A stretch of DNA of 64,000 nt from Actinomycetota bacterium (GTDB lineage: Bacteria; Actinomycetota; UBA4738; HRBIN12). The stretch is from contig JBOGVG010000103.1 in assembly GCA_050692435.1 (NCBI GenBank), positions 2,897-66,896 of the forward strand. Direction: 5' to 3'. Of the stretch, positions 54,624 to 64,000 are shown one piece after another (position 1 is the stretch's first letter; each line of letters starts with the position of its first letter). Under the pieces are notes generated by a model. That model saw only the letters and a list, made by a program, of their open reading frames with translations, was not told where the DNA came from and did no database searches. Both the position numbers and the translations under genes were made by a program.

Positions 54624-54698
54624 GGGCCTGTAGCTCAGCTCGGTTAGAGCGCATCCCTGATAAGGATGAGGTCGTTGGTTCAAGTCCAACCAGGCCCA
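54624..54698 (+). tRNA. ileT: tRNA-Ile (anticodon GAT)
   Basis: Hand-folded cloverleaf: acceptor GGGCCTG/CAGGCCC, D stem GCTC/GAGC, anticodon stem CATCC/GGATG with loop CTGATAA, and T arm GTTGG-TTCAAGT-CCAAC. CCA is not encoded. Confidence 0.95.
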
Positions 54699-60161: not shown

Positions 60162-60772
60162 AACGAGGGTTCCGCGGCGTCACGATGGTGGTCGCGGTGC
60201 TGGCGTCGATAGGGCTCTCCGCGATCATCCCGGCCCTCGCCGCCCGGACGAACCTGGGCGATGCGAACGACAGCCCCGGGCCCCTGGACCTGCGGCACAT
60301 TCGGTTCGACCAGGACGCCGGCCCGGCCTCATGGGCGCTGCACACGTTCGGCTCCTGGACCGTCGACGACATCCAGGACTCGGGCTTCGTGTTGGTGATC
60401 CTCGACACGCTGGGGAGCCCCGACGAGGACTACCTAGTTGTCGTCCGGTCCGACGGACCGAAGCTGGTCGGCCTGCTCCTCCGTCGGCGGACGGGCGGCC
60501 GGGACACCGAGATCGGCCGGGTCCGGGTGGCGAAGTCCGGAGCCGATGGGGTCACGATGACGGTGGACATGGGCAAGCTGAATTTCGGGCCGACGCGAAC
60601 GTTGTACTTCTGGTGGGTACTCTCGCAGTTCACCGGGAAGGAATGTCCGCGGACCTGTCTGGACCGCGCGCCCGAGGAACGGGCCGTGCAGCAGAAGATC
60701 CCGAGCCCGTCGCCCACGCCCACCCCCTCACCCAGTCCCACCGACAGCCCCACGCCGTCGCCGAGCCCGTAA
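60158..60772 (+). CDS. Secreted protein of unknown function with SP/TP-rich C-terminal tail
   Basis: The GTG overlaps the upstream TGA. Signal peptide VKRGFRGVTMVVAVLASIGLSAIIPALAA. The tail reads PSPSPTPTPSPSPTDSPTPSPSP. Confidence 0.6.
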   Translation: MKRGFRGVTMVVAVLASIGLSAIIPALAARTNLGDANDSPGPLDLRHIRFDQDAGPASWALHTFGSWTVDDIQDSGFVLVILDTLGSPDEDYLVVVRSDGPKLVGLLLRRRTGGRDTEIGRVRVAKSGADGVTMTVDMGKLNFGPTRTLYFWWVLSQFTGKECPRTCLDRAPEERAVQQKIPSPSPTPTPSPSPTDSPTPSPSP

Positions 60773-60810
60773 CCCGAAGGCGGGCGCCTCGGCGCCTATG
60801 ATTGGGTGCC

Positions 60811-60848
60811 GGGGACGTAGCTCAGTCGGTAGAGCACCTGCTTTGCAA
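60811..60848 (+). pseudogene. tRNA-Ala (TGC) 5' fragment: acceptor 5' strand, D arm, anticodon stem 5' strand and loop only
   Basis: GGGGACG-TA-GCTC-AGTCGGTA-GAGC-A-CCTGC-TTTGCAA. The next bases are CCGGA rather than the required GCAGG. I found no T arm or CGTC(C/T)CC acceptor 3' strand in the next 3 kb. Confidence 0.7.
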
Positions 60849-61292
60849 CCGGAACAGCTCGAACGGTGTGCTGACCAGCGAAAACGCTCGGTCGGAGCGA
60901 GCGACACGGGCGCAGTTATCCGCTTAATCTCATGCCGTTGTGGACCGAGTGGGAACGGGTCTCGCGAGCCGGCGGGACCATTCGGTTGACCCTGGGCAGT
61001 GAGCCTTACAGGAAAGATCTCTTCGTAACCGAGGGCGTAGTGAGGCCCAGCGACGTCTACGCGGAGCGAAAGCGGCCGACTGCGACGGTCGGGAGTCGTG
61101 AGCACGATTCGTGTCGGTAGGAACTGGACGGGAGGCAATGCTCCTCGGTCGGAGGCCGACGCCTTCCAGACGACGGCCTGTTGGTGGCTTTCGCTTGCGG
61201 CGCTCGGGGGTCTCGGTCTGAACGCCGTCTTCGCTGGTGGTGGGCTGAACTAGTTTGTCCTGAAGGAACTTGCGAGGAGAGGGGAGGAACAG
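60849..61292. other. ~440-nt non-coding tract of lower GC with several small hairpins
   Basis: No frame gives a recognisable protein. My hand count of 60901-61020 gives about 61% GC, against about 75% for a 60-nt sample in the operon. Hairpins include AGCG-AAAA-CGCT (60877-60888), CACG-ATT-CGTG (61103-61113) and GTCGG-AGG-CCGAC (61148-61160). Confidence 0.5.
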
Positions 61293-61801
61293 ATGGCCCG
61301 TAAGATGCTGATTGCCGAGCAGTCCATCGCGACCAACGGCGTCACTAGCGTGACGCCCTGGACGGAAGCACGCGATCGCTTCGCGGAGGCGAATAGGTAC
61401 TGGCTAGCGACGGTGCGCCCAGACGGGAGACCACATATCATGCCGGTGTTCGGTGTCTGGGTGGGCGATGCTCTGTACTTCACAGCGGCCCGCACGAGCC
61501 GCAAGGCGAAGAACCTCGCGCTAAACGCCCGATGTGTGGTCGCGGCTGAGGTTCCCACCCTCGATGTGGTCGTCGAGGGCGAAGCCGTGAGGGTAAGCGA
61601 CGAGGCGAAGCTCCATCTCGTGGCCGACGCATACGCGTCCAAGTACGAGTGGCCCCTGACGGTGCGCGACGGCGCCTTCTTCGCGGAGTACGGAGCCCCC
61701 TCCGCCGGCTCGCCCCCGTACGACCCGTACGAGATGACGCCGGTGACGGGCTTCGGTCTCGGCATGGACGGCCATTCGGGGCCGCGCGTTGGAAATTCTA
61801 G
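61293..61801 (+). pseudogene. PPOX-class (pyridoxamine 5'-phosphate oxidase family, F420/FMN-binding) gene with apparent 3' frameshift
   Basis: WLATVRPDGRPHIMPVFGVWVGDALYFTAARTSRKAKNL... is typical of the family. An alternate frame ends HGRPFGAARWKF-TAG (61763-61801), resembling the family C-terminus. As assembled, the gene reads through in frame into the next gene. Confidence 0.55.
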
Positions 61802-61826
61802 ACGGGGTGCTCCCAGGCGACGAGCC

Positions 61827-62570
61827 ATGAAGCGCGGACTGTACTTGGCACCGTTCGACGAGTTGGCGGATCCGCGTCTCCTGGCCGAGCTCCCCAGGGT
61901 TGCTGAGTCCCGAGGTTGGGACGGCCTGTTCCTGTGGGATCGGATCGCGTATCCGCCCTCGGACCGCGCCGTGGCCGACCCATGGGTGGGACTCAGCGCC
62001 ATCGCTTCCAAGACGGACAGCCTTCGTATCGGGCCGATGATCACTCCGCTCTCGCGGAGGCGCGTCCAGAAGGTCGCACGGGAGACGGCCACGCTGGACC
62101 ACCTGAGCAACGGGCGTCTGAAACTGGGCGTCGGGCTCGGCAACACCGACGATCTCAGGCCTTACGGAGAGGCCATCGATCCACTCGAGCGCGCGCGCCT
62201 GCTGGATGAGGGCTTGGAGCGGCTCAGTGGATTCTGGAACGGCGCATTCCGCCCCCTCCCGGTACAGCGCCCGCGGATCCCCGTCTGGGTCGCGGCGAAC
62301 TGGCCCAATAGGGGCCCGGTCCGACGCGCGGCTCGATGGGACGGGTTGTTCCCGATCGATCTCCCCGGACCCGAGCAGCTCGCCGAACTCGCCGAAGCTC
62401 TTCGGCAGGAGCGTGCCGGGAGCGAGGATCCCTTCGATCTCGTCGTCGAGGTGCCGCCCGGAGCCGACGCTCATGCGTGGGAGGCCGCTAGCGCGACATG
62501 GGTGCTCACGAGCATCGAGCCGCAGCCCCCGGAGCACGAGATACGTGGGGTGATCGAAGCTGGTCCCTGA
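61827..62570 (+). CDS. LLM-class flavin/F420-dependent oxidoreductase (short form)
   Basis: MKRGLYLAPFDELADPRLLAELPRVAESRGWDGLFLWDRI...LGVGLG.... It shares the frame of ORF 61293..62570, and its codon usage is less GC-biased than the rest of the window. Confidence 0.6.
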   Translation: MKRGLYLAPFDELADPRLLAELPRVAESRGWDGLFLWDRIAYPPSDRAVADPWVGLSAIASKTDSLRIGPMITPLSRRRVQKVARETATLDHLSNGRLKLGVGLGNTDDLRPYGEAIDPLERARLLDEGLERLSGFWNGAFRPLPVQRPRIPVWVAANWPNRGPVRRAARWDGLFPIDLPGPEQLAELAEALRQERAGSEDPFDLVVEVPPGADAHAWEAASATWVLTSIEPQPPEHEIRGVIEAGP

Positions 62571-62730
62571 CCGCAGGTCCACGAAGAGTCCCTATCGATC
62601 GAACATGAGCGCAGCAGCAGTGCCATGCTTGCAACGACCCCGATGTGGTGCCGAGAGGGTGGGTGCCATCCGTGACGGACGCGGATCACCAACAACATCC
62701 AGGCGACCCCGACCGTCTTGACGGGCTGCG

Positions 62731-63100
62731 GTGCGGGACGGTGCCGCAGACAAACACCGGCCCAGCGCAACCGACTACGACGCCGAGCTGCGGCTGCACA
62801 ACGAGTGTTGCGCCGCGCCTGCCGGATCCACCGCCATGAGCACGTCCTCGATATCGGATGTGGGACCGGGCAGACGACCCGTGATGCCGCCCGGATGGCG
62901 CTGGCAGGGAGTGCGCTCGGGGTCGACATCTCCGCGTCCGCCATTGAGCGCGCCCGCGAGCTCGCCCGGGCGGAACGGCTCCCGAAGTCACCTTCGACCA
63001 GGGCGATGCGCAGATCCACCCCTTTCTGCCGGGGCATTTCGTTCTCGCTATCAGCAGGTTCGGCACGATGTTCTTCGACGACCCCATTGCCGCGTTTGCC
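62731..63100 (+). pseudogene. Class I SAM-dependent methyltransferase remnant spread over three frames and 3'-truncated
   Basis: Frame 1 reads DYDAELRLHNE. Frame 0 reads RVLRRACRIHRHEHVLDIGCGTGQTTRDAARMALAGSALGVDISASAIERARELARAERL. Frame 2 reads PEVTFDQGDAQIHPFLPGHFVLAISRFGTMFFDDPIAAFA. The frame changes lie near 62803-62810 and 62979-62984. Confidence 0.7.
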
Positions 63101-63384
63101 ATCCTTGAGGATGGCCTGCACATGGATTGGGCATTCTTCGGCTTCGTCCTGGGCTCGGCGATCATCCTTCTCGGGCTCCTCGCGCTCACGGGCGCGATCG
63201 CGCTCGCTGGTCGCGAGAGCCACCGGTACTCCGCGCTCATCCCGGCCGGGACCATGGCCGCCTTGATCTTCTACGTGGCCGCAGGCGGCATTCTGATGCT
63301 GGCCACCTGGCTCGCTGCAAGCGCGGTAGTCCTGGTCTTGCCCACGGGCACGGCTGCACAGACGTGACGGTCGTGAGCGTGTCG

Positions 63385-63526
63385 ACACCGTCGGGGCCCG
63401 CAGCCTGGCGCGACATCCCCGCCGTGTCAGGCGCCGATCGAGTTATCGATCCGGCCCTGCAACGTTGGATGGCGCAACGGGCGGGAGCGACGACGACGAT
63501 GTTCGACGATACGAGCCGCGCCGGCG
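63385..63526 (+). pseudogene. C-terminal remnant of an alpha/beta-hydrolase
   Basis: TPSGPAAWRDIPAVSGADRVIDPALQRWMAQRAGATTTMFDDTSRAG resembles the C-terminal Asp...His region of alpha/beta hydrolases (His position reads Arg). No N-terminal part is present. Confidence 0.45.
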
Positions 63527-63916
63527 TCACACGACGGCGACGGCGTCGATCTCGACGAGGAACTCGGGGCCCAAGCCGGCGACGACGTGGACCGTGAGGG
63601 CCGGCGGTGGGTCGGCCGGGTTCCACGCCTGCTGGAAGGCGGCGACACCCTCGTCGAACGTGTGGCCGTCCACCACGGCGATGGTCCAGTGCACGATGTT
63701 CGCCAGGCTCGCTCCCTCGCTCTCGAGGATGGTCCCGAGGTTGCGGAACGCCTGGCTGGCCTGCTCCCCGACGGTGGGACCGACGACCTTGCCGTCGGCG
63801 TCGACGCCGTTCTGTCCGCCGACGTAGATCGTCTTCGCCGGCTGTTCGACTACGACGGCCTGGCTGAAGGCCGGGCTGCGGTGGAGTCCCTCGGGGTTGA
63901 TGTGCCGTGTGCTCAT
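63527..63916 (-). CDS. RidA/YjgF/TdcF-family protein
   Basis: MSTRHINPEGLHRSPAFSQAVVVEQPAKTIYVGGQNGVDADGKVVG...FLVEIDAVAVV. GGAGG RBS lies 7 nt upstream of ATG 63916. Confidence 0.85.
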   Translation of the reverse strand: MSTRHINPEGLHRSPAFSQAVVVEQPAKTIYVGGQNGVDADGKVVGPTVGEQASQAFRNLGTILESEGASLANIVHWTIAVVDGHTFDEGVAAFQQAWNPADPPPALTVHVVAGLGPEFLVEIDAVAVV

Positions 63917-64000
63917 GTGTCGCCCTCCTCTGGCGATGAGACCAGTCATAGTGGTTTCGTGTGTGACACCGGTTGTAGTCGTTTCATGCGAGCGAGCGCA

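What the first reader, a model, noticed from the sequence alone, without database searches (positions are those of the whole stretch)
60811..61292. tRNA-Ala(TGC) stops at the anticodon loop and is followed by 440 nt of non-coding, lower-GC sequence
The first 38 nt fold as a textbook tRNA-Ala 5' half, including loop TTTGCAA. Position 39 onward (CCGGA...) cannot pair with CCTGC. I found no T arm or 3' acceptor strand downstream. The junction coincides with a compositional drop and the start of a region of broken genes. There are three readings:
1. An integration/deletion scar at a tRNA hotspot.
2. An assembly chimera joined at a conserved tRNA segment, if this is a MAG.
3. An intervening sequence. 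The stretch GTAGGAACTGGACGG (61117-61132) loosely recalls the group I intron J8/7-P7 core AGACUAGACGG as I remember it from the Azoarcus tRNA intron, but no 3' exon is visible, so I rate this reading lowest.
If this is the only tRNA-Ala(UGC) gene, GCA decoding would be affected, so a second copy should exist.
Basis: seen in the sequence. Interest (0 to 1): 0.6.

Follow-up and report, generated by a model that had tools for sequence, protein, structure and literature searches.

The report
Orphaned tRNA-Ala half marks island border
The half tRNA-Ala gene is the front half of the host's own gene, pushed aside when a mobile island recombined into the anticodon arm and supplied a replacement front half, so it is an ordinary integration scar of the rarer front-half kind, next to a conserved attachment-site arm found across Actinomycetota.

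Summary
Window 60811-60848 is an exact 38-nt 5' half of tRNA-Ala(UGC). No tRNA or intron model matches there, and no 3' half lies on the contig.

It is neither an intron nor, very probably, an assembly chimera. It is the displaced 5' fragment of the host tRNA-Ala gene at one end of an integrated island.

- **Conserved block:** the 65-70 nt after the half (60859-60928) occur in 52 of 294 genomes of the class and 47 of 401 sampled across the phylum. In 45 of 46 places inspected the block abuts a tRNA gene cut in its anticodon arm.
- **Two layouts:** the cut gene is either a sense 5' half or an antisense 3' part.
- **Restored gene:** in seven of eight well-assembled cases the intact cognate tRNA lies about 2.8-13 kb further on. 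In three it sits beside a Xer-like tyrosine recombinase.
- **This genome:** the intact tRNA-Ala(UGC) ends contig C38. Relatives show that the C38 sequence sits at this same locus.
- **State of the island:** The "non-coding" 440 nt include a cation-efflux gene relic.
- **Nature of the block:** it shows no base-pair covariation, so I read it as a protein-binding attachment arm.

Islands with a displaced 5' fragment are known but uncommon (159 of 3919 in Islander). Interest is modest.

The parts
60797..60802 (+). TATGAT, a -10-like hexamer of the native tRNA-Ala promoter. It is now left driving only the orphaned half.
   Evidence: It lies 8 nt upstream of tRNA position 1. Equivalent TATGAT/TATCAT hexamers sit at the same place before the intact gene in G007, G003 and G019. 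The promoter role is inferred. The simple sigma-70 scan found no full promoter.
60811..60848 (+). Displaced 5' half (positions 1-38, through the anticodon loop) of the host tRNA-Ala(UGC) gene.
   Evidence: It is 38/38 identical to the intact genes on own contig C38 and in relatives. G007:C280 and C271 carry the same upstream genes with the intact gene at this place.
60849..60861 (+). Linker on the island side of the crossover. Its sequence varies between elements.
   Evidence: Linkers of 10-17 nt of differing sequence separate the tRNA fragment from the conserved block in all loci.
60859..60928 (+). Conserved integrase-distal attachment arm ('motif-1'). Its boxes are AACGGTGTGC (60862-60871), the inverted pair TGACCAGCG / CGCTCGGTC (60872-60893), GAGCG (within 60895-60907) and AGTTATCCGCT (60914-60924).
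   Evidence: - Model R1 scores this stretch at 64.7 bits.
- It occurs in 52/294 genomes of the class and 47/401 sampled across the phylum.
- It abuts a tRNA fragment in 45 of 46 places inspected.
- It shows no covariation.
60929..61054 (.). Unassigned non-coding DNA inside the island.
   Evidence: No relative matches it beyond a short, probably chance resemblance to cpaF genes at 61024-61076.
61055..61144 (+). Second conserved block ('motif-2') of unknown role.
   Evidence: It has 77-98% matches on own contig C192 and in G050, G018, G175, G179 and G189. It has no Rfam match and no covariation.
61151..61250 (+). Relic (about 33 codons, ending in a stop) of a cation-efflux (CDF) family membrane-protein gene.
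   Evidence: The relic reads EADAFQTTACWWLSLAALGGLGLNAVF. It aligns with full-length genes in G042, G060 and G247. The G042 protein matches Pfam Cation_efflux at 3.3e-16.
61189..61292 (+). Upstream region and ribosome-binding site of the next cargo gene.
   Evidence: It is 89% identical over 162 nt to G113:C228, and the match runs into the start of the homologous gene.
61293..62570 (+). Island cargo: a PNPOx-like domain fused by frameshift to a truncated luciferase-like monooxygenase.
Evidence: Pfam finds PNPOx_N at residues 25-120 and Bac_luciferase starting at profile position 21.
62571..63530 (.). Island cargo: broken gene fragments, including the N-terminus of a methyltransferase.
Evidence: The ORF at 62718-63266 matches only the first ~50 positions of methyltransferase profiles.
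63527..63949 (-). Island cargo: RidA / L-PSP family gene.
   Evidence: Pfam Ribonuc_L-PSP at 1.2e-20.

Best explanation
An integrative element recombined with the host tRNA-Ala(UGC) gene inside its anticodon arm.

**How the element works.** Its attachment site carries its own copy of the tRNA's 5' half, with upstream sequence that presumably holds a promoter.
- Integration joined that copy to the host's 3' half, which restored a complete gene at the far, integrase-proximal end of the island.
- The host's original 5' half, with its native promoter, was left stranded at the near end. That stranded half is what the window shows.
- Directly after the stranded half comes the element's conserved integrase-distal arm. 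It is about 65-70 bp of fixed sequence boxes, most likely binding sites for the recombinase or its helpers.

**The element family.**
- It is spread across Actinomycetota and uses a Xer-like tyrosine recombinase.
- It targets many tRNA species.
- It occurs in two mirror layouts, one displacing the 5' half and one displacing the 3' part.
- Many members carry only cargo and stack in tandem.

**What is shown and what is inferred.**
- Shown: the junction, its recurrence, the paired intact tRNA in relatives, and the locus synteny.
- Inferred: the crossover chemistry, protein binding to the arm, transcription of the orphan half, and the physical link between contigs C103 and C38.
For: **1. The locus is intact in a sister genome.** G007:C280 and C271 carry the same upstream genes at 90-93% identity, followed by an intact tRNA-Ala. 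The downstream synteny continues on own contig C158.

**2. The junction recurs.** The same 5' half followed by a related block occurs in:
- G011, with the same upstream genes;
- G002, with a different upstream;
- G013, a different genus.

**3. Motif-1 is widespread and almost always abuts a cut tRNA.**
- It occurs in 52/294 genomes of the class and 47/401 sampled across the phylum, with up to 12 copies per genome.
- In 45 of 46 places inspected it lies 10-17 nt from a tRNA gene cut in the anticodon arm. The exception is L030.
- The targets are Ala, Arg, Val, Pro, Gln and others.

**4. The intact cognate tRNA lies nearby in well-assembled genomes.** In 7 of 8 contexts it sits about 2.8-13 kb inward, in the matching orientation.
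- 5'-displacing: G117, G288, G245, G186:C1.
- 3'-displacing: G146, G190 (two in tandem), G186:C4.

**5. A recombinase sits beside the restored tRNA.** G117, G288 and G245 have a ~310-340-aa tyrosine recombinase there (PF00589 3e-29 to 6e-23, with SAM-like N-domains). It scores below the XerC/XerD cut-offs.

**6. The restored 5' half is element-borne.** In G245 the displaced half and the restored gene differ in the D loop.

**7. The intact gene's upstream matches the family's integrase-proximal arm.**
- Upstream of the restored tRNA, elements share the boxes AGTTAnnCGCTG - CGGTGTGCAACGG - TTTCCGCAGGTAGA.
- G006 and G004 carry TTTCCGCAGGT/CAGACAT just before the gene.
- C38 keeps CTGTGCCAAAC and GTAGACAT, with the piece between them deleted.

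**8. The C38-type region sits at this same locus in relatives.** In G006 and G010 it lies between the MauE operon and tRNA-Ala, and G010 then continues into the native downstream genes. Genus members without that region (G003, G007) have the uninterrupted locus.

**9. The published frame fits.**
- Islander defines islands by a regenerated tDNA plus a displaced fragment. It lists 159 of 3919 islands with a 5' fragment and 2083 with an anticodon-centred site (PMC4383910).
- pTN3 uses the 5' half of a tRNA gene (PMC8371274).
Against: - **The two ends are unlinked.** In this assembly they lie on different contigs (C103 and C38) with no overlap. The link rests on synteny in relatives, not on this genome's own sequence.
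- **No element integrase is assembled here.** Only the two housekeeping Xer genes are found, at ~30% identity.
- **C38's arm is partly deleted,** and its neighbouring genes are an amidase-like ORF split over two frames (from its sequence only; no Pfam match) and a coiled-coil protein without a Pfam match, not an integrase.
- **Several relatives lack the left end.** G001, G004, G006 and G010 have the C38-type region but no 5' fragment or motif-1. I have to explain this by later deletion; in G006 the neighbouring 220-aa gene is missing too.
- **No read-level check** of the junction was possible.
- **Protein binding to motif-1 is untested.**
Confidence: 0.85

Rival explanations
1. Assembly chimera. 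The assembler joined the native tRNA-Ala locus of one strain to unrelated DNA of another strain or organism through the shared 38-nt segment.
For: - The genome is a fragmented MAG: 276 contigs and 8% estimated contamination.
- The shared segment is short, and C38 breaks inside the same tRNA.
- Reads could not be checked.
Against: - A chimera between two tRNA genes would continue into a 3' half. Here the continuation is a block that abuts cut tRNA genes in dozens of other genomes.
- Sister species G011 has the orthologous upstream genes joined to a diverged version of the same block.
- A partner molecule carrying '5' half plus motif-1' would itself be the integration scar.
Confidence: 0.04
2. 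A disrupted gene with an independent replacement. The element split tRNA-Ala without restoring it, and the C38 tRNA-Ala is a separate complete gene elsewhere, as in tRNA-dependent lysogeny.
For: - C103 and C38 are not physically linked.
- Actinobacteriophages are known to disrupt a tRNA and carry a replacement (PMC10865867).
- Earlier scan notes describe such cases in other genomes.
Against: - The fragment and the intact gene share the full 38 nt up to the crossover, not a ~10-bp core.
- In seven assembled relatives the intact gene sits exactly at the other island end, in the configuration expected for restoration.
- G010 shows the C38-type region, then tRNA-Ala, then about 2.8 kb of other DNA and then the native downstream genes.
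Confidence: 0.07
3. An intervening sequence or split tRNA. The half is the 5' exon of a gene interrupted by a group I or other intron, or one half of a trans-spliced tRNA.
For: - The break is at the anticodon loop, where bacterial tRNA introns sit.
Against: - Rfam gives no Intron_gpI or other match at E<=10.
- No 3' exon is found on the remaining 4.4 kb of C103 or anywhere else in the genome except the intact C38 gene.
- The 5' exon would end in A, not the U that group I splicing needs (my knowledge).
- The same block flanks antisense 3' parts of tRNA genes.
- No structure covaries.
Confidence: 0.01
4. A functional RNA. The orphan promoter, the 5' half and motif-1 are kept as a transcribed regulatory RNA, for example one that signals the integrated state or drives the cargo, and are not a mere scar.
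For: - The native -10-like TATGAT is retained.
- Motif-1 is strongly conserved across the phylum.
- The first cargo gene is on the same strand.
Against: - Motif-1 occupies the same place next to antisense 3' parts, where no tRNA promoter reads into it.
- No base-pair covariation appears in 45 distinct sequences.
- Its boxes recur as single copies in the other arm of the attachment site, as protein-binding sites do.
Confidence: 0.1

Closest known systems
tDNA-integrated genomic islands with a displaced 5' tDNA fragment and an anticodon-centred attachment site (Islander classification, Hudson, Lau and Williams 2015, PMC4383910; Williams 2002 sublocation class)
   Same: - A tyrosine recombinase splits a tRNA gene at the anticodon arm.
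- Island sequence restores the gene.
- The displaced fragment and the restored gene mark the island ends.
- Tandem arrays occur.
   Different: - The recombinase is Xer-like, a subclass that the Islander search deliberately excludes.
- One family uses both the 5'-displacing and the 3'-displacing layouts on the same tRNA species.
- This copy has no integrase, and its two ends are on separate contigs.
pTN3-type integration in Thermococcus (attB = 5' half of a tRNA gene; Cossu et al. 2017, as cited in PMC8371274)
   Same: The identity block covers the 5' half, so the element must supply the promoter-proximal part of the gene.
   Different: It is an archaeal plasmid/virus-like element with an unrelated integrase subfamily. 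No motif-1 arm is known for it.
cis-mobilizable elements (CIMEs) and accretion arrays of Streptococcus ICE/IME families (PMC5704250, PMC6323972)
   Same: Elements bounded by attachment sites but lacking their own recombinase, stacked in tandem beside an integrase-bearing relative.
   Different: - The host phylum and integrase family are different.
- The site here is inside a tRNA anticodon arm.
- Mobilisation in trans has not been shown.
tRNA-dependent lysogeny of actinobacteriophages (Guerrero-Bustamante and Hatfull 2024, PMC10865867)
   Same: An Actinomycetota element integrates in a tRNA gene, and the element provides tRNA function.
   Different: In those phages the common core is ~10 bp, the gene is not rebuilt, and a separate complete phage tRNA compensates. 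Here the gene is rebuilt at the junction from an element-borne half.
Bacterial group I introns in tRNA anticodon loops (e.g. Azoarcus tRNA-Ile, cyanobacterial tRNA-Leu)
   Same: The interruption is in the anticodon loop region of a tRNA gene.
   Different: There is no intron core, no 3' exon and no splice-site U, and the inserted DNA is a multi-kilobase island.

Membership tests
tDNA-integrated genomic island (Islander definition) | A fragment of a tDNA that duplicates part of an intact tDNA of the same genome. | tested here: met
   60811-60848 is 38/38 identical to the tRNA-Ala(UGC) at the end of own contig C38.
tDNA-integrated genomic island (Islander definition) | Correct configuration: the 5' fragment lies upstream of the intact tDNA, in the same orientation, on one replicon. 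| tested here: inconclusive
   The two ends are on unlinked contigs. The configuration is met in relatives G117, G288, G245 and G186:C1. It is implied here by G006/G010 synteny.
tDNA-integrated genomic island (Islander definition) | An integrase gene inside the island. | tested here: not met
   tblastn with three family integrases finds only the two housekeeping Xer genes in this genome. Related elements do carry one next to the restored tRNA. By the strict definition this copy is a degraded or cargo-only island.
tDNA-integrated genomic island (Islander definition) | The crossover lies at a recognised sublocation (anticodon loop, T loop or 3' junction). | tested here: met
   Identity ends at tRNA position 38-41 in 5'-displacing members. 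It ends at the 5' border of the anticodon loop or stem (about 25/26 to 31/32) in 3'-displacing members.
Group I intron in a tRNA gene | A conserved catalytic core detectable by the Rfam Intron_gpI model. | tested here: not met
   No match at E<=10 in 60600-61500.
Group I intron in a tRNA gene | A 3' exon that completes the tRNA downstream of the intron. | tested here: not met
   No T arm plus acceptor 3' strand on the + strand of C103. The 3' half occurs in the genome only at the C38 end.
tRNA-dependent lysogeny | A short (~10 bp) common core, so the tRNA is not rebuilt, and the element carries a separate complete tRNA. | tested here: not met
   The common block is the whole 38-nt half. In assembled relatives the only cognate intact gene is the junction gene itself.
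cis-mobilizable element (integrase-less, att-bounded) | Bounded by both attachment sites of a known integrase family and lacking a recombinase gene. | tested here: inconclusive
   The left arm is intact (64.7 bits). The right arm on C38 is partly deleted. No integrase is assembled, but the island interior is incompletely assembled.
Structured non-coding RNA (for motif-1) | Base pairs kept by compensatory changes across relatives. | tested here: not met
   - RNAalifold finds 3 pairs and no compensatory change.
- My two proposed helices score no better than shuffles: 278/500 and 162/500 shuffles reach the observed values.
- No column pair combines high mutual information with pairing in 45 sequences.

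The most novel reading that the evidence does not exclude
The elements bearing motif-1 could form a phylum-wide gene-capture system of Actinomycetota.
- Small cargo-only cassettes would each carry a two-armed attachment site built around half of a tRNA gene.
- Xer-like integrases encoded by a minority of members would move them in trans.
- The cassettes stack in tandem at tRNA anticodon arms in either orientation.
- In the 5'-displacing layout each cassette is placed behind a captured tRNA promoter, so the orphan half in this window would be a working expression signal and not a dead scar.
Probability: 0.25. Interest if true: 0.6.

Novelty: new member of a known kind. Interest (0 to 1): 0.33.

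Why it matters
- **For this genome:** the half tRNA is not a lost essential gene, an intron or a mis-join. It fixes one border of a decaying island and explains the run of broken genes after it.
- **More widely:** it exposes an apparently undescribed, widespread family of tRNA-targeting elements in Actinomycetota.
  - The family has a recognisable ~70-bp arm that can serve as a search handle for island borders in fragmented MAGs.
  - Its integrases are Xer-like, a subclass that the Islander search filters out by design.
  - It uses both mirror layouts on the same tRNA species. That is a convenient natural test of how the near-symmetric anticodon arm sets the direction of integration.

Tried and rejected
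- **Intron:** Rfam at the gathering threshold and at E<=10 found nothing. A pattern search for the 3' half found nothing on C103.
- **Motif-1 as a structured RNA:** by eye I saw two hairpins.
  - RNAalifold gave no support.
  - Explicit pair counts with shuffles gave no support.
  - A mutual-information scan of 45 sequences gave no support.
  - The first 'hairpin' is better read as an inverted pair of a 9-10-bp box. That box also occurs singly in the other arm.
- **cpaF/virB11 relic at 61024-61076:** the many hits are all to one conserved gene and cover only ~33-55 nt. tblastx gave nothing convincing. I treat it as probably a chance match.
- **Motif-2 as a known RNA or a coding piece:**
  - no Rfam match;
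  - no covariation;
  - the short conserved reverse-frame peptide is not inside a consistent ORF.
- **Motif-1 in known phages or plasmids:** no match.
- **Element integrase in this genome:** none found.
- **Contig-end overlaps linking C103, C38 and C158:** none found.
- **Literature:** I found no description of this motif or family in the searches run.

Full report
**What is in the sequence**

Window 60811-60848 is an exact 38-nt copy of positions 1-38 of tRNA-Ala(UGC), ending with the anticodon loop TTTGCAA.
- ARAGORN finds only tRNA-Ile(GAU) at 54624 in the window.
- Rfam finds no tRNA and no intron at 60600-61500, at the gathering threshold or at E<=10.
- G+C drops from about 0.70 to about 0.63 at the junction.

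The window is contig C103:2897-66896 of a 2.86-Mb MAG with 276 contigs and 69% G+C.
- A pattern search of the whole assembly finds no T arm plus acceptor strand downstream on C103.
- It does find a second copy of the 38 nt at the very end of contig C38. There it continues as GCAGGGGGTCGGCGGTTCGAGTC, a normal 3' half cut off by the contig end, behind a different upstream sequence.
- No other tRNA-Ala(UGC) is assembled.

**The locus in relatives**

G007, of the same genus, has two contigs with the same upstream genes at 90-93% identity. tRNA-Ile lies 6.1 kb before an intact tRNA-Ala(UGC). The genes downstream of that tRNA match own contig C158. The ancestral state of this locus is therefore an uninterrupted gene.

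The truncated half followed by a related sequence also occurs elsewhere:
- in G011, with the same upstream genes;
- in G002, with the C38-type upstream;
- in G013, another genus with another upstream.

Independent assemblies with diverged sequence carry the same kind of junction. That makes a mis-join very unlikely.

**A conserved block that marks cut tRNA genes**

The ~65-70 nt after a 10-17-nt linker (window 60859-60928) are conserved. The consensus is aACGGTGTGCTGACCtGCGgAAAcGCAGGTC ... GAGCG ... AGTTATcCGCTG.
- BLAST finds the block in 52 of 294 genomes of the class.
- A sequence-only model built from 25 copies (R1) finds it in 47 of 401 genomes sampled across the phylum. Some genomes hold up to 12 copies, often 3-4 kb apart in the same orientation.
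- In 45 of 46 places I inspected, the block is preceded by a tRNA gene cut in its anticodon arm. The exception is L030, whose upstream showed no recognisable tRNA fragment.
- The cut gene is either a sense 5' half or the antisense 3' part.
- The tRNAs include Ala(UGC), Ala(GGC), Arg(UCU), Arg(ACG), Val(UAC, GAC, CAC), Pro(GGG) and Gln(CUG).
- Ala(GGC), Arg(UCU) and Arg(ACG) each occur in both layouts.

**The other end**

In eight well-assembled contexts I fetched up to 40 kb inward from the block. In seven, the intact cognate tRNA lies about 2.8-13 kb away, in the orientation that matches the fragment. The eighth contig ended too soon.
- 5'-displacing: G117, G288, G245 and G186:C1.
- 3'-displacing: G146, G190 (two units in tandem) and G186:C4.

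The gene next to the restored tRNA differs between elements.
- In G117, G288 and G245 it encodes a 308-340-aa tyrosine recombinase. It has Phage_integrase at 3e-29 to 6e-23 plus SAM-like N-domains.
- NCBIfam places this protein nearest XerC, XerD and XerA but far below their cut-offs.
- G186:C4 keeps only fragments of it. G146, G190 and G186:C1 have none.

Other genes in the full elements are AAA_25 ATPases and, in G288, a prohead protease and an exonuclease.

In G245 the displaced half and the restored gene differ in the D loop (GGGGG against TCTGGG). The 5' half of the restored gene therefore came with the element.

Units in the arrays of G248 and G395 are 1.7-4 kb and, in G248, hold single large cargo genes. 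Their ORF lists show no ORF with the family integrase's N-terminus, and the integrase tblastn found nothing in these loci; the ORFs were not scanned against Pfam.

**Nature of the block**

I first read two hairpins in it. The tests did not bear this out.
- RNAalifold finds essentially nothing.
- My explicit helices pair no better than shuffled partners.
- No column pair in 45 distinct sequences combines covariation with pairing.

Instead, the boxes recur in the other arm. Upstream of the restored tRNA in 5'-displacing members the order is AGTTAnnCGCTG, CGGTGTGCAACGG, then TTTCCGCAGGT(C/A)A just before the tRNA. In 3'-displacing members the last box appears inverted (CTGACCTGCG) beside the tRNA 3' end.

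The block's 'hairpin' is thus an inverted pair of a box that elsewhere stands alone. I conclude that the block is the integrase-distal arm of a ~180-200-bp attachment site and acts as double-stranded DNA bound by protein. This is an inference and no binding was tested.

**Back to this genome**

The upstream of the intact tRNA-Ala in C38 and its homologues matches the integrase-proximal arm of the family.
- G006 and G004 carry TTTCCGCAGGT/CAGACAT just before the gene.
- C38 keeps CTGTGCCAAAC and GTAGACAT, with the piece between them deleted.

The C38-type region is present in 7 of 12 genomes of the genus. It is absent from those with the uninterrupted locus, G003 and G007.
- In G006 it lies directly between the MauE operon and tRNA-Ala.
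- In G010 it is followed by tRNA-Ala, about 2.8 kb of other DNA, and then the native downstream genes.

C38 is therefore best read as the right-hand part of the island whose left border is at window 60849. G002 (C38-type region, then 5' half, then motif-1) is a second insertion into the restored gene, which gives a tandem array.

No element integrase is assembled in this genome, and no contig ends overlap. The cargo is decaying:
- a frameshift fusion of a PNPOx-like gene and a luciferase-like gene;
- a methyltransferase stub;
- a RidA gene (earlier notes).

**What fills the 440 nt**

| Window | Content |
|---|---|
| 60849-60861 | Linker |
| 60859-60928 | Attachment arm (motif-1) |
| 60929-61054 | Unassigned |
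| 61055-61144 | Second conserved block (motif-2) |
| 61151-61250 | Relic of a cation-efflux family gene, about 33 codons |
| 61189-61292 | Conserved upstream region of the PNPOx-like gene |

- Motif-2 also occurs on own contig C192 and in about six other genomes. It has no Rfam match and no covariation.
- Full-length homologues of the cation-efflux relic match Pfam Cation_efflux at 3.3e-16.
- The resemblance of 61024-61076 to cpaF genes is short and probably chance.

**Comparison with what is known**

Islander defines tDNA islands by a regenerated gene and a displaced fragment. It counts 159 of 3919 islands with a 5' fragment and 2083 with anticodon-centred sites. It also excludes Xer-type integrases from its search (PMC4383910).

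The case here is that uncommon layout, in a family I could not find described.

It differs from tRNA-dependent lysogeny, where the gene is not rebuilt (PMC10865867). Integrase-less, att-bounded units resemble CIMEs.

Earlier notes of this scan report similar integrase-less cassettes at tRNA genes in other phyla. I treat those as leads only.

**Verdict**

This is an integration scar of a known kind in its rarer orientation. It belongs to a widespread, apparently undescribed Actinomycetota element family with a conserved attachment arm. Confidence is 0.85.

Noticed in passing
window 61055-61144; also own contig C192:7700-7800, G050:C130, G018:C132, G175:C52, G179:C65, G189:C2: A second conserved non-coding block: GGAGCG..CCGCCGAnCGCGACGGTCGG..AGCACGATTCGnGTCGGTAGGAAC..GGACGGCAA. 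It is 98% identical over 48 nt to a genome of another family. In G018 it lies ~35 nt before a degenerate tRNA 3' part. It has no Rfam match and no covariation, and its role is unknown.
   Followed up: partly
window 61151-61250: About 33 codons (EADAFQTTACWWLSLAALGGLGLNAVF...) are a relic of a cation-efflux (CDF) family membrane-protein gene. Intact homologues exist in G042, G060 (two inverted copies 26 kb apart) and G247.
   Followed up: yes
G190:C14, G248:C52, G395:C110 and C13, G656:C77, G539:C123, G515:C90, G493:C81 (loci L055, L141-L146): Motif-1 units stand in tandem, 1.7-4.3 kb apart, at one tRNA gene. The G248 units carry single large genes (925-1062 aa, starting with a zinc-ribbon-like CxxC...CxxC) and no recognisable integrase gene. 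These are cargo-only cassettes in arrays.
   Followed up: partly
G288:C6 element (L063, about 4.1-14 kb): This integrase-bearing member also encodes an AAA_25 ATPase, a Caudovirus prohead serine protease and an RNase_T-type exonuclease. That suggests a phage-satellite-like or remnant prophage member of the family.
   Followed up: no
own contig C38:1555-3573: Next to the intact tRNA-Ala lie an amidase-like ORF split over two frames and a 383-aa coiled-coil protein (MQAPQLKRGLFGY...) with no Pfam match. An 86% paralogue of the coiled-coil protein lies on contig C93.
   Followed up: no
window 60885-60903, minus strand: A terminator-like hairpin followed by TTTTCG lies inside motif-1 on the minus strand. 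It is particular to this copy and is not a family feature.
   Followed up: no
G010:C8, about 2.8 kb between tRNA-Ala and the native downstream genes: There is a further small insertion on the 3' side of the same tRNA-Ala gene in G010. The gene therefore appears to be used as a hotspot from both sides.
   Followed up: no
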